In this document: piece by piece, positions 21,759-44,372 of the stretch
How the letters are laid out: each line of letters opens with the position of its first letter
Position numbering within the stretch: position 1 is the first letter of the stretch
From: Pavona decussata
Lineage: Eukaryota
Direction of reading: 5' to 3'
DNA: 64,000 bases
Assembly: GCA_977016875.1 (NCBI GenBank)
Contig: CDRNST010000080.1
Span: 310,001 to 374,000, forward strand
Position numbers and translations under genes: made by a program
The notes under the pieces: generated by a model
Database searches by the model: none
What the model was told of the DNA's origin: nothing
What the model saw: only the letters and a program-made list of their open reading frames with translations

Positions 21759-24700
21759 TCAAGATTTCATTGTCTGATCGATCCAGTTCCGGAACTTAGC
21801 AACCCTTCCAAACACAGTGTATCGCTCAGTAGCAGAGCACCTCGGGGAACCCCAGCTGACGTCACCCTGGAGAACCCAATTGCCGTTAGCACCCTGGCAG
21901 ACGTAAGGGCCACCACTGTCTCCATGGCAGCCACTGAGAATAGTGCCACTGACACCAGCGCACAGCATGTATTGAGTGATCTGAAGAGACGATCCTCCTA
22001 TTAAAAACAATAGATCGGGTTAACTAAACGTGATAGCAGAATGTCTCGGACATTTGCCGAGAGGGAATGAACTCTTTAATGAATGGCATACTTCTTATGA
22101 CGATTTTGTTTTGTCCCACCATGCTATGAGAGCATAAGGTGATTGCGATGGATCTTTCAAGTGATACAAACCTACTTAAAAACAAAAAAAAAATGACTTC
22201 AGTCGCGTACCTGGTGATGCCGCTAGTTTTCTTGCACATTCGCTGTTGGTGACCGGTGGCATTTGAGCTTGCTGAAGAATGTTGTGAGAAGATCCTGGGT
22301 GTTTTATCTTGCCCCATCCTAAATGAAAATGTAAAGGAAAAAATACATCTTTATAACTGAGTTTTGAGCGCGGTGGAATATTAATTCTTATTACAACTGC
22401 TATCAGTGCTACAAGGATTCCCATTTGCTTGTTGATTCTCTCAACGTAAAATGGGTCGAATAAAAGCTTTACCGATTCAAGGATCTGTACAGGCCCGGCC
22501 CGCAAATGATCCCCGGACGGGAAATGATCCCCAAATTGGACCGCAAATGATCCCCGGACCGGAAGTGATTCTAATAAAACGTACCGCAAAACGAAGGAAT
22601 GTCCTGGACTCCACGTCAGTTCACGGATATATGAGGAAAACACAAATTCCTCAGGATTTTATAACAACAATAGAAACCGGTAAACGTGCTGTGCCAAAAG
22701 ACAAAATTAACCTGGCAATATTTAATTTTTGGACAAAACATAAATTCTATTGATTTTAACGTGTCAGTCTCGGAGATTATTACACCTTTGATTTGAAAAT
22801 ACATTTTCCTTCGCAATTAGCTATTGCTTCAATATTTTAAAACTCTGTTTTAGAAATGTTAGATAGGATACTTAACTCTTTTAAAACGAAATTGAATTTT
22901 TCTCCTTGATCTAGGTCGTGCAATTAACAAACTTTATCGGAACCCTTTCGACAGTCCAACATACGCTTATAGGTGGCCCAACCTCAAGCTGTGAGCGATT
23001 ATCACTTGAGCAATAGCTGTCACTGCGAAAATATGACAGTTTGTATGGGAATATTTACGATCGGGTTTACGAAGTAGAAATACTGTAAAGTTCTTAATAA
23101 AAATGACATACCTTCTAAGAACTTTACAGTATTTCTACTTCCTAGGCCTGATTATAAAGTGCAATAGCGGTCACGGCACAAGTATGGGAAAACATTCCCA
23201 TACTTGCGCCGTGACTGCTATTGCACAAGAGACCGTCACAAGATGATCATAGCTCACAGCTTGAGCTGGGACTACCTGTGCACATGAGATTTTTTTTTTT
23301 TGTTGTTGTTTTTTTTGGAGGCGTGAGAACAAGGAAACAATCCTCACTTGCGAAAGCGACGGCTATTTGGAGTGAACAGAGCTCATTATTTAAACCAGGT
23401 TACTGTGGGAAAATGGCGTGGTTGAATTTGCTGTTTCCCCTTGCGCTTGCTTTCGCTTTTTTTTCCCAGTATTTACGGTATAGGAGATAATGACAAATCT
23501 GACAAGAAAGAGACGCCTGAAAAGAAAAAAGAGGTATGTTTTAGTAAAGACTCATGCAGGTCTATGCCGACGACAGTGTGTTTCGCGAAAATTGTTTAAA
23601 GGAAGACTGGGAATCGTATTAGCCCGAAATGATATTAACATATTTACACGATGAAATCAATTTTGGACGACTTAGATAGTTATGCTTAAAGTGCCCTTGC
23701 ATGATTATTATTATTATTATTTTTTTTTTTATTTTTATTTGTGTATGAATCAACACATACCGCAAAGAAGTTCGGAGAAAATTTTTTTTTTTTTTTTTTA
23801 AACTTGCTAAAGTCATCAATGACCCGCCTTAAATTTTTGTTGTGTTTGCATAGAGTATTTAAATTCTCGTCTCCTCTGGTTCTCATTTGATCTTAGGTTT
23901 CACAGATGTATCGAAGAAATAACAAAAACAATATTTTATCCAGTTAACGGCCTTTCGGTTGTACTGTTAAGATTCATTTCGTATTGTTAGCCCTATTAAA
24001 AAAAAGGATTTTCGTAAAATTCGTACCCATTTTTGGCGTTGTAATCGTACAAGTTAAAAATATACATGTATATTCCAGTTTATAGGACTATTGATTTTCT
24101 TTTTATTTGCACTTAGCAGCTACACTGTAATTTTTAGACTAAAAAATTTGCATGCAAAGCGTTTAAATAAAATGATTGTTGCGTTATAAGAAAAAAAATT
24201 AAGTGTATAAAGTTTAAATACAATGTCCAAATTCCCAAGTCCATTCCATTCTATATTTATTGATGAGGCGACGAAATCCGGTCGGGGATCATTTGTGGTC
24301 CAATTTGGGGATCATTTCCCGTCCGGGGATCATTTGCGGTCCAAATTGGGGATCATTTCCGGTCCGGGGATCATTTGAGGGCCTGTACAGATCCTTCAAT
24401 ACGTTATGTGGCATTTTGATGCCAAAACGAATGTGACCAATTCGTATCGCACGACGGTAACGCCAGCAAAAATGTCACTTAGAAATAAATATTCATATCA
24501 TCTTAGCTACTTTGTGAGTATTCCAATCCGTTCAACTTGCACATTGTGAACGACTTATCCAGGAATATCGTCAGTAGCAACGCCGGCCGTCCAATGCCAG
24601 AAAAAAAAGAAGGAAAAAAAAACCGTCGAGTGCCCACGCTCTGCTTAAAACTTTGAATTTTTTTTCACGACGTTAGGGCATTAAGTAGCAACGACGACGG

Positions 24701-43900: not shown

Positions 43901-44372
43901 TGTACACGCCACAAGAAAAATCGCTCACAGTTATTTCAGTATCTACTGTTTAGCAAAAAGACTTTCAAGTCAACAGCGAGTGAATTACATGTTCTGGATT
44001 AAGTCGACTTTTCTGACTTTGCTGTGGGGCGAATTAAGTATATTTTGTGCCTTTCTGTTTTTTGCAAAAGAAAGAGAAAATAAATCTCCTGAGAATTCAA
44101 GTGAGGATTCGAAAAATCTAACAACGAAATGGTATTAAAGTCTGGTTAAAACGTTTTTCAGTAATTGTCCTAAATATACTGTTGATTGCTAAAATTGAAT
44201 AGTTAAAACTACTTAAAAAATACAGAATCTGTGTATATTTTCTTTTCCATTACTGCCGTGGATTAAAAGATTTTGATAACAACTGTGTAATGACATAAAA
44301 TCTTGACTTACCCTTTGAGTGCGAGGAAAAACTCCCAACAATGAAACAGCAAACCAAAATCACAATCTTCAT
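21759..44372 (-). CDS. Gene B: secreted polyserine protease, about 1210 aa (signal peptide - trypsin - MAM - trypsin - MAM - ShKT - elastase/chymotrypsin-like S1)
   Basis: 17 phase-compatible exons: 44372-44312, 43252-43060, 39688-39060, 38679-38548, 36761-36526, 35651-35510, 34975-34783, 33861-33233, 32852-32721, 30402-30167, 29279-29138, 28165-28040, 27016-26922, 26147-26050, 25429-25188, 22318-22211, 21997-21759. They sum to 3633 nt and end in TGA. AATAAA at 21727-21722 and 21671-21666. N-gaps fall only in introns. Confidence 0.78.
22486..24389. mobile_element. 1.9-kb non-autonomous TIR element (TGT...ACA ends, 4-bp TSD; Ginger-like)
   Basis: GATC|TGTACAGGCCC...GGGCCTGTACA|GATC, with subterminal AAATGATCCCC repeats. 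The empty site CAAG-GATC-CTTCAATACG is in gene C at 50985-50988. Confidence 0.85.
22971..23277. mobile_element. Nested MITE-like element with two internal hairpins
   Basis: TIR AGGTGGCCCAACCTCAAGCTGTGAGC / GCTCACAGCTTGAGCTGGGACTACCT; hairpins at 23071-23141 and 23160-23225. Confidence 0.6.
27018..27099. repeat. (TAA)~27 microsatellite abutting a splice acceptor of gene B
   Basis: Minus strand reads (ATT)n-AG|exon starting at 27016. Confidence 0.95.
27210..27385 (-). mobile_element. Degenerate tRNA-derived SINE (paralogous copy at 53833-54008)
   Basis: Minus strand GGAGGCTACCAAGTGGCCGAGCGATTAAC...GAACTTGAAATCCGG head, followed by CCCCGAGATCAACTGCTCGG...TGTAAATAGTCAA body. Confidence 0.5.
28040..28165 (-). 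CDS. Gene B ShKT domain exon (not in the ORF track)
   Basis: [42 protein letters not shown]; 126-nt phase 1-1 exon bounded by CAG and GTAGG; C-x3-C-x2-C terminus typical of ShKT. Confidence 0.85.
28403..28526 (-). pseudogene. Truncated relic of a third trypsin first exon
   Basis: [42 protein letters not shown], after which homology stops. No AAHC, no donor and no partner exon. Confidence 0.8.
29138..32852 (-). CDS. Gene B MAM domain 2 plus Pro-rich linker (exons 32852-32721, 30402-30167, 29279-29138)
   Basis: [11 protein letters not shown]...FDWT...TGPS..H; YMYIETS...[14 protein letters not shown]...GDIAIDD....GSC. Confidence 0.92.
30550..30629. repeat. (AAT)n microsatellite
   Basis: Seen directly; homologous runs at 37846-37905 and 57123-57205. 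Confidence 0.95.
33233..34975 (-). CDS. Gene B trypsin-like domain 2 (exons 34975-34783, 33861-33233)
   Basis: [34 protein letters not shown], Pro-rich tail. Confidence 0.95.
35510..38679 (-). CDS. Gene B MAM domain 1 plus Pro-rich linker (exons 38679-38548, 36761-36526, 35651-35510)
   Basis: Same MAM motifs and identical exon sizes (132/236/142 nt) as MAM domain 2. Confidence 0.92.
37846..37905. repeat. (AAT)n microsatellite
   Basis: Seen directly in the sequence. Confidence 0.95.
39060..43252 (-). CDS. Gene B trypsin-like domain 1 (exons 43252-43060, 39688-39060)
   Basis: [34 protein letters not shown]. Confidence 0.95.
39925..40980 (-). mobile_element. Degenerate Crypton-like (DUF3504 tyrosine-recombinase family) element
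   Basis: Minus-strand remnants [10 protein letters not shown]...[19 protein letters not shown] (ATG at 40950) and [18 protein letters not shown]. Terminal inverted repeat AACAATTATCCTG / CAGGATAATTGTT at 39928-40041. Boundaries are approximate. Confidence 0.55.
44312..44372 (-). CDS. Gene B first coding exon: signal peptide
   Basis: [20 protein letters not shown] followed by G|GTAAGT; phase 1 matches the acceptor at 43252. Confidence 0.8.

What the first reader, a model, noticed from the sequence alone, without database searches (positions are those of the whole stretch)
21759..44372. Polyprotease with a repeated trypsin-MAM unit, a toxin-fold domain and a third protease
Seen: signal peptide-[Tryp-Pro linker-MAM-Pro linker]x2-ShKT-S1, with all three triads intact. 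The two five-exon units (193/629/132/236/142 nt) are nearly identical even in introns, indicating recent internal duplication. Established: vertebrate polyserases often include inactive domains, MAM mediates adhesion or oligomerisation, and ShKT is the sea-anemone K-channel toxin fold also found on proteases. Inference: an accordion-like gene whose number of catalytic units varies.
Basis: partly seen in the sequence, partly recalled or inferred. Interest (0 to 1): 0.75.

Follow-up and report, generated by a model that had tools for sequence, protein, structure and literature searches.

The report
Coral three-protease chain from shuffled modules
This gene, likely from a stony coral, is predicted to make one secreted chain carrying two trypsin-like enzymes and one chymotrypsin-like enzyme, and it sits among neighbours built from the same shuffled parts (one predicted to carry six proteases), likely a fast-remixing set of digestive enzymes of a kind already described in sea anemones.

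Summary
Confirmed. The minus strand (44372→21759) holds 17 GT-AG exons giving an open 1,210-aa frame: signal peptide–trypsin–MAM–trypsin–MAM–ShKT–S1 protease, with all three triads intact. The third protease is a different, Ser189 (chymotrypsin/elastase-like) type. The two units are 93–99% alike in exons and 89–96% in aligned intron parts, but two introns differ in length; dN/dS is 0.36. A collapsed or duplicated assembly is therefore unlikely.

One paralogue is astacin–MAM–T–MAM–ShK–C; six are MAM–T–ShK×3–C; one is an open 2,403-residue frame, astacin–[MAM–C]×3–[MAM–T]×2–ShK.

The accordion idea holds across paralogues and species. It is untested between individuals, and no full-length transcript was seen. 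Most likely this is a secreted gut zymogen activated by trypsin cleavage, whose units stay disulfide-tethered; ShKT is probably accessory, not venom. Such cnidarian architectures are described (PMC6767649), so this is a new variant of a known kind.

The parts
44312..44372 (-). Gene A exon 1: ATG and predicted signal peptide (61 nt, ends in phase 1)
   Evidence: the most hydrophobic window of the protein is its N-terminus
43567..43586 (-). Junction in intron 1: joins B-type intron 1 to the 3' end of a MAM-to-trypsin intron; marks the loss of astacin+MAM (10.8 kb in gene B coordinates)
43060..43252 (-). Unit 1 exon t1 (193 nt): propeptide Cys, R|IVGG activation site, His57
39060..39688 (-). Unit 1 exon t2 (629 nt): rest of trypsin T1 (Asp102, Asp189, Ser195) and Pro-rich linker
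35510..38679 (-). MAM1, three exons (38679-38548, 36761-36526, 35651-35510), the last with a Pro-rich linker
33233..34975 (-). Trypsin T2, two exons (34975-34783, 33861-33233), triad and Asp189 intact
29138..32852 (-). MAM2, three exons (32852-32721, 30402-30167, 29279-29138)
28403..28526 (-). Truncated third copy of the t1 exon (remnant of a lost trypsin unit); weak acceptor, no good in-frame donor, predicted to be skipped; same remnant in gene B at 55177-55054
28040..28165 (-). ShKT-like domain, single 126-nt phase 1-1 exon, seven Cys
21759..27016 (-). Third protease (C-type, Ser189/Gly216/Thr226), five exons (27016-26922, 26147-26050, 25429-25188, 22318-22211, 21997-21759), R|VIGG activation site, stop codon
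50254..64000 (-). Tandem paralogue gene B (3' part; continues to G000:C80:385120): signal-astacin-MAM-trypsin-MAM-ShKT-C, 22 exons, open 1,179 aa
2152..19932 (+). Neighbour gene F, same toolkit: signal-astacin-Pro linkers-trypsin-D8C-C-type protease (modelled up to the first C exon; the rest read from tblastn and exon ends)

Best explanation
Gene A is a 17-exon gene, likely of a stony coral, predicted to encode a secreted polyprotease that likely serves extracellular digestion, assembled by duplication and deletion of phase-1 exon modules in a tandem cluster. Shown from sequence: the open frame, the three triads, two pocket types, and the duplication and deletion scars. Inferred: the zymogen is secreted from gland cells, and trypsin cuts after Arg at R30|IVGG, R474|IVGG and R967|VIGG. 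Once one trypsin unit is active it could switch on the others and the Ser189 enzyme, a trypsinogen-to-chymotrypsinogen cascade packed into one chain. Each propeptide Cys (22, 466, 960) would pair with the Cys122-equivalent of the next domain (142, 586, 1078), so the activated enzymes would stay strung together through MAM spacers and Pro-rich linkers. MAM and ShKT likely act as spacing, adhesion or oligomerisation modules. Unit number likely changes by unequal crossing-over between similar modules.
For: Open 1,210-aa frame over 17 GT-AG exons. Purifying selection between units: 15 synonymous and 18 non-synonymous changes, dN/dS 0.36, p=0.006; A-B tail dN/dS 0.15. 38 of 38 computed module-boundary introns in genes A, B, D1, D6 and E are phase 1 (one more was assumed). 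Sister genes show other module counts with open frames. Breakpoints are visible: the intron-1 junction, the shared truncated exon, and D6's last C exon fused to the end of an ShK exon. In the tree, C-type domains form one clade (100/99), T-type domains another (90/90, not starred), and the repeats of E and of Actinostola are each other's closest relatives. 10 of 29 hand-picked public proteins join a T-type and a C-type domain. The best C and ShK matches are to Desmophyllum P0278, 86% and 67%. [quoted passage not shown]
Against: No transcript joining the units was seen. In four runs only guessed to be RNA, the rows shown had four short contigs on exons (depth 2.4-4.1, 2-11 differing letters) and no exon-exon joint; 18 joints and 1,321 pieces were not shown. 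The donor after each MAM is weak (5.8; most of the 62 cluster donors score higher) and the truncated exon keeps an AG acceptor, so other splice forms are possible. Tissue and substrate are inferred from other species. Nematostella trypsins also rise in wound healing and some have immune roles. Activation order and disulfide tethering rest on family conventions (recalled), not on an experiment or model. No public protein among the 29 examined has exactly this architecture.
Confidence: 0.62

Rival explanations
1. The protein is real but works mainly in venom, mucus or territorial attack (nematocysts, extruded mesenterial filaments), with the released ShKT acting on potassium channels.
For: ShK Pfam match. 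Stylophora cnidocytes express ShK toxins (PMC8162421 passage). The D paralogues amplify ShK three times. Mesenterial filaments carry cnidocytes.
Against: The ShKT is embedded between Pro linkers, with no basic residue on its N-side that would let trypsin free it. It has seven Cys. In the only toxin alignment (BgK, E=1.8) Ala-Trp sits where BgK has Lys-Tyr. ShKT folds without, and even with, the dyad can be inactive on Kv channels (PMC5793123). ShK is common on ordinary Nematostella trypsins and its role there is unknown.
Confidence: 0.15
2. The protein is a tissue-remodelling or immune protease (wound healing, regeneration, symbiont handling), tethered to matrix or cells by MAM.
For: MAM has adhesive functions and helps meprin dimerise (PMC9848320). 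Trypsins are upregulated in Nematostella wound healing. Sister genes carry astacins.
Against: A large, near-identical tandem array with broad trypsin, chymotrypsin-like and astacin activities fits bulk secretion better than regulated signalling (inference). No transmembrane segment is predicted.
Confidence: 0.15
3. The three-protease chain is not made as such: the duplication is an assembly artefact, A and B are two haplotypes placed in tandem, or splicing yields only shorter products.
For: A and B are close (tail dS 0.038). No junction-spanning RNA was seen. Two D copies look broken: D2 has a 1-nt deletion in its first ShK exon and D4 has no ATG. N stretches in the window cannot be told from gaps.
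Against: The units differ at 33 exon positions and in intron length, and carry a selection signal. All close copies lie on one 6.5-Mb contig, with none on another contig. The flanking genes are not duplicated with the A/B block. The six D copies are 95.3-97.9% alike, none identical. Similar multi-unit proteins are predicted in other anthozoans.
Confidence: 0.08

Closest known systems
Nematostella trypsin-MAM, trypsin-ShK, trypsin-astacin and triple-trypsin (NVJ_127465) proteins (PMC6767649; passages and section 9 read, figures not seen)
   Same: Secreted multidomain S1 proteases diversified by tandem duplication and exon shuffling; ShK on a single exon; triple-protease genes made by internal duplication.
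   Different: Here two pocket types (Asp189 and Ser189) are mixed with MAM and ShK in one chain, whereas the three domains of NVJ_127465 are monophyletic. The cluster shows the breakpoints themselves and holds a predicted six-protease chain.
Predicted anthozoan proteins P0278 (Desmophyllum), P0004 (Pocillopora), P0001 (Actinostola), P0010 and P0272 (Oculina), P0284 (Dendronephthya), P0005 (unnamed)
   Same: Same T-type, C-type, MAM, ShK and astacin modules, 64-86% identical at best; P0278 has the same seven-Cys ShK and is the likely orthologue of genes A/B.
   Different: Module number and order differ in every one; none of 29 examined is T-MAM-T-MAM-ShK-C. All are automatic gene models; I saw no functional study of them.
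Vertebrate polyserase-1 (TMPRSS9), polyserase-2 and -3 (PMC1435904; background section and passages read); Xenopus ovochymase (title in a reference list only)
   Same: Several S1 domains on one chain, with Arg-|-I/VxGG activation sites.
   Different: Independent origin (tree; PMC6767649 says triple trypsins arose several times). No type II anchor or LDLa. All three triads are intact here, whereas the TMPRSS9 third domain has Ala for Ser195 and only the first domain of polyserase-2 is active.
Meprins and cnidarian MAM- or ShKT-astacins (PMC9848320; passages read)
   Same: Astacin followed by MAM in sister genes B and E; HExxHxxGxxHE and Met-turn present.
   Different: Gene A itself has lost the astacin. 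B and E continue with serine proteases instead of TRAF/EGF/membrane parts.
Sea-anemone ShK/BgK potassium-channel toxins (PMC5793123; passages read)
   Same: ShKT cysteine frame.
   Different: Embedded in a 1,210-aa protease, one extra Cys, and no Lys-Tyr dyad in register.

Membership tests
Peptidase family S1A (trypsin/chymotrypsin) | His57-Asp102-Ser195 triad in TAAHC / DIAL / GDSGGP motifs | tested here: met
   3 of 3 domains; Pfam Trypsin
Peptidase family S1A (trypsin/chymotrypsin) | Zymogen activation site Arg-|-I/V-V/I-G-G and propeptide Cys pairing with Cys122 | tested here: met
   R|IVGG twice, R|VIGG once; ten Cys per domain incl. propeptide; the pairing itself is inferred
Trypsin-type specificity | Asp189, Gly216, Gly226 | tested here: met
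   T1 and T2
Trypsin-type specificity | Asp189 in the third protease | tested here: not met
   Ser189/Gly216/Thr226; separate clade
Peptidase family S1A (trypsin/chymotrypsin) | Proteolytic activity | not testable with these tools
   needs recombinant protein
Vertebrate polyserase-1/TMPRSS9 | Three tandem S1 domains on one chain | tested here: met
Vertebrate polyserase-1/TMPRSS9 | Type II transmembrane anchor and LDLa module | tested here: not met
   all segments are assigned to signal, T, MAM, ShK, C and linkers; no internal hydrophobic window above 1.3
Vertebrate polyserase-1/TMPRSS9 | Domains group with TMPRSS9 domains | tested here: not met
   anthozoan rows 100/99 apart from human and rat TMPRSS9; small tree with a long-branch warning, midpoint root
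ShK/BgK potassium-channel toxins | ShKT six-cysteine frame | tested here: met
   Pfam ShK 22.6 bits over cut-off 20.9; seven Cys, one extra
ShK/BgK potassium-channel toxins | Lys-Tyr functional dyad | tested here: inconclusive
   Ala-Trp aligns with the Lys-Tyr of BgK and a Lys lies one place earlier; alignment E=1.8
ShK/BgK potassium-channel toxins | Stand-alone peptide released from a short precursor | tested here: not met
   embedded at residues 910-948 of 1,210
ShK/BgK potassium-channel toxins | Channel block | not testable with these tools
   needs electrophysiology
MAM domain | About 150-residue domain with two disulfides | tested here: met
   Pfam MAM on three exon pieces of unit 1; four Cys per domain
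Cnidarian modular trypsins (PMC6767649) | Signal peptide, ShK on a single exon, tandem genomic duplicates | tested here: met
Cnidarian modular trypsins (PMC6767649) | Expression in mesenterial or pharyngeal gland cells | not testable with these tools
   no tissue-resolved RNA available

The most novel reading that the evidence does not exclude
The locus is a living polyprotease assembly kit. Unequal crossing-over among phase-1 modules keeps writing self-activating, disulfide-strung multienzyme chains (up to astacin + 3 chymotrypsin-like + 2 trypsin on one 2,400-residue polypeptide), a covalent protease counterpart of a cellulosome. Unit number would be polymorphic among colonies and would tune feeding capacity.
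Probability: 0.2. Interest if true: 0.68.

Novelty: new variant of a known kind. Interest (0 to 1): 0.42.

Why it matters
The ingredients and the evolutionary mechanism are in print for Nematostella. What this locus adds is a single 270-kb cluster in which gain and loss of whole catalytic units can be read at the breakpoints, with copies only a few percent apart. It also holds a predicted chain joining two protease classes and three specificities. That makes two open questions testable: what is gained by fusing proteases into one chain (fixed ratio, built-in activation, retention on prey or mucus in a water-flushed gut), and what ShK does beside a trypsin. If unit number varies among colonies it would be a marker for coral feeding, which matters for survival of bleaching (inference).

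Tried and rejected
RNA evidence. No RNA holder was listed (4 of 17 runs held the stretch, none on record as RNA). Laying contigs of four runs guessed to be RNA on 24401-40700 mainly covered intronic repeats; most exons had no cover, which says nothing about expression.

Protein searches. A longer-protein search with the MAM exon found 1 hit among 57 candidates and was uninformative. The 50%-representative search with P0004 was swamped by poly-MAM and poly-trypsin proteins: 2 of the best 150 had two or more S1 domains plus MAM (one search was a failed first attempt at the profiles). Asterisks are pattern misses, not shown inactivity.

Truncated exon. Use as an in-frame exon was rejected: acceptor score 3.2, best open phase-1 donor 1.4 against 2.8 or more for 61 of 62 modelled donors, and no AATAAA after its stop.

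Gene models. No signal exon was found for gene E in the 5.2 kb upstream. The D4 model failed.

History. The order of the A/B gene duplication and the unit duplication could not be fixed: dS 0.038-0.070, with a mosaic of shared sites.

Papers and earlier notes. The ovochymase and polyserase-1 papers are not held. Both look-ups of earlier scan notes returned nothing. Six literature searches listed no paper on this cluster or architecture; I read listings and passages only, and the figure supplements of PMC6767649 that show architectures were not held as text, so an identical architecture may be drawn there.

No structure or complex prediction was run; no binding claim is made.
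Full report
Observation. The minus strand from 44372 to 21759 carries 17 exons, all bounded by AG and GT, that join into 3,633 nt and 1,210 residues with one terminal stop. The order is signal peptide, trypsin T1, Pro linker, MAM1, Pro linker, trypsin T2, Pro linker, MAM2, Pro linker, ShKT, third protease. Pfam supports each domain on single exon pieces. All three triads are present. T1 and T2 have Asp189/Gly216/Gly226. The third domain (here called C) has Ser189/Gly216/Thr226, which by the recalled convention means a chymotrypsin/elastase-like pocket; a Desmophyllum relative is labelled chymotrypsin-like elastase by its source.

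The duplication. Unit exons are 92.7-98.7% identical and aligned intron parts 88.9-96.3%. Two of four introns differ in length by 0.5 and 2.4 kb, and 17 of 443 residues differ. There are 15 synonymous and 18 non-synonymous differences (dS 0.049, dN/dS 0.36; Fisher p=0.006). This is a real, young duplication under purifying selection rather than one unit assembled twice. All close copies of the trypsin and MAM exons lie on the window's own contig.

Between MAM2 and ShKT lies the first 124 nt of a third trypsin exon (28526-28403). It has a weak acceptor and no good in-frame donor, so it is predicted to be skipped. The sister gene B has the same remnant with the same end, so a trypsin unit was lost before A and B split. 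Intron 1 of A is a junction: its 5' 726 nt match intron 1 of B and its 3' 315 nt match the intron that leads from MAM to trypsin. The 10.8 kb between those points in B hold a complete astacin and a MAM. A is therefore a B-like gene with one more trypsin-MAM period and without astacin-MAM. The array is cut at both ends, so the unit could as well be written MAM-trypsin, which is how it appears in the other paralogues.

The cluster. The window is G000:C80:310001-374000. I fetched 250001-310000 and 374001-654000; related domains occur only between about 312 and 584 kb. The genes modelled were as follows. B: signal-astacin-MAM-T-MAM-ShK-C, 22 exons, 1,179 aa open. D1, D3, D5: signal-MAM-T-ShK-ShK-ShK-C, 865 aa open; D2 has a 1-nt deletion in its first ShK exon and D4 has no ATG. 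D6: as D1 but with a second C domain, 1,145 aa; its last C exon runs into the tail of an ShK exon and so gains a donor. E: astacin-[MAM-C]x3-[MAM-T]x2-ShK, 42 exons, 2,403 residues open, signal exon not found. F, in the window on the plus strand: signal-astacin-T-D8C-C. Four single-trypsin loci and one MAM-trypsin-trypsin locus were seen by tblastn only. The six D copies are 95.3-97.9% alike, the two MAM-T units of E 97.5%, and its MAM-C units 77-80% where they align. All 38 computed module boundaries are phase 1, so any module can be added or dropped without a frameshift.

Relatives. The closest named proteins are from stony corals and other anthozoans, hence 'likely stony coral'. I hand-picked 29 public proteins for MAM, coral names or high identity. 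Ten join a T-type and a C-type protease, in varying order and with varying MAM number, and none matches gene A exactly. Desmophyllum P0278 (astacin-MAM-MAM-ShK-ShK-C) gives the best C (86%), ShK (67%) and MAM (64%) matches and has no trypsin between its MAMs; it is an automatic model with an incomplete astacin. Actinostola P0001 is [C-MAM]x3-C-T. In a 39-row tree the C-type domains form a clade (100/99), the T-type domains a weaker one (90/90), and TMPRSS9 lies outside. The repeats of E and of Actinostola cluster by gene, and A1, A2 and B form one clade (100/95) whose inner order is unsure. Unit expansions thus happened more than once.

Mechanism. Shown: signal-like N-terminus, three Arg-|-I/VxGG sites, intact triads, and ten Cys per protease domain. 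Inferred from family knowledge (recalled): secretion as a zymogen; activation by trypsin cleavage after Arg, which the chain's own trypsin units could supply; and propeptide Cys to Cys122 bonds that would keep each activated enzyme tied to the piece before it. The linkers are 23-48% Pro with few usable basic sites, so the product would be a string of two trypsins and one chymotrypsin-like enzyme. In B the astacin propeptide also ends in Arg. The likely setting is the gut: trypsins mark mesenterial gland cells in Nematostella (PMC6767649, passages and section 9), a trypsin-rich gland cell occurs in Stylophora (PMC8162421, passages), and chymotrypsins and zinc proteases are high in coral mesenterial filaments (PMC11269664, passages). 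None of this was measured for gene A.

ShKT. The domain passes the Pfam cut-off narrowly, has a seventh Cys shared with the D genes and with P0278, and aligns weakly with BgK, with Ala-Trp opposite the Lys-Tyr dyad. ShKT folds often lack channel activity (PMC5793123, passages), and ShK is a common single-exon companion of Nematostella trypsins with unknown role. I read it as an accessory module.

Against the reading. No full-length or junction-spanning transcript was seen. In four runs guessed to be RNA, the rows shown held four short low-depth contigs on exons, some probably from paralogues. The donor after the MAM is weak. That A and B are haplotypes cannot be fully excluded. Variation between individuals, the core of the accordion claim, is untested.

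Comparison and verdict. Trypsin-MAM, trypsin-ShK, trypsin-astacin and triple-trypsin proteins, and their origin by tandem duplication and exon shuffling, are described for cnidarians (PMC6767649). Vertebrate polyserases (PMC1435904, background and passages) are a parallel, not the family: no membrane anchor or LDLa here, and a separate place in the tree. The gene is a new variant of a known kind. Its value lies in the cluster, where gains and losses of catalytic units are legible and where one frame predicts six proteases of two classes. Interest 0.42.

Noticed in passing
G000:C80:531268-565122 (L016-L020): Gene E: 42 exons, open 2,403-residue frame, astacin-[MAM-C]x3-[MAM-T]x2-ShK, six predicted proteases of two catalytic classes on one chain; signal exon not located.
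   Followed up: partly
G000:C80:489658-505578 (L012-L014): Gene D6 gained a second C-type protease through a duplication whose breakpoint fused the last C exon to the tail of an ShK exon, replacing the stop with a phase-1 donor.
   Followed up: yes
G000:C80:402028-505578 (L003-L014): Six tandem MAM-T-ShKx3-C genes, 95-98% alike; D2 has a 1-nt deletion in its first ShK exon and D4 lacks the ATG, which suggests birth-and-death turnover or assembly errors.
   Followed up: partly
window 2152-19932 (+): Gene F: signal-astacin-Pro linkers-trypsin-uromodulin D8C-C protease, tail to tail with gene A; Oculina P0010 has the same parts in another order.
   Followed up: partly
window 35510-35651 and 29138-29279; L004:1292-1433: The last MAM exon is 142 nt in A/B but is predicted to end at 91 nt in the D genes, which have an earlier GT donor; the Pro linker-like sequence is exonic in A/B and intronic in D.
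   Followed up: partly
window 28040-28165: The ShKT has a seventh cysteine conserved in the D genes and in Desmophyllum P0278; it could form an inter-domain or inter-chain bond.
   Followed up: no
window 27018-27104: A (TAA)n microsatellite forms the acceptor of the first C exon; it is about 29 units long in A and nearly absent in B, so the acceptor has no usual pyrimidine tract.
   Followed up: no
window 22494-22569, 24284-24377, 25490-25715, 39960-40110: Intronic repeats: an 18-41 nt tandem unit in inverted arrangement flanking a 1.9-kb stretch of A's C-domain intron that B lacks (likely an insertion), and short high-depth interspersed elements that drew most contigs.
   Followed up: no
G000:C80:394716-398556, 508425-524353, 573234-583624: Further trypsin loci seen by tblastn only: four single-trypsin genes (one followed by an ShK) and a MAM-trypsin-trypsin gene with a different intron pattern.
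   Followed up: no
G000:C6, C27, C39, C47, C72 and C80:6.2-6.35 Mb: More distant trypsin exon homologues (65-73%) elsewhere in the genome, including a second group at the far end of the same contig.
   Followed up: no
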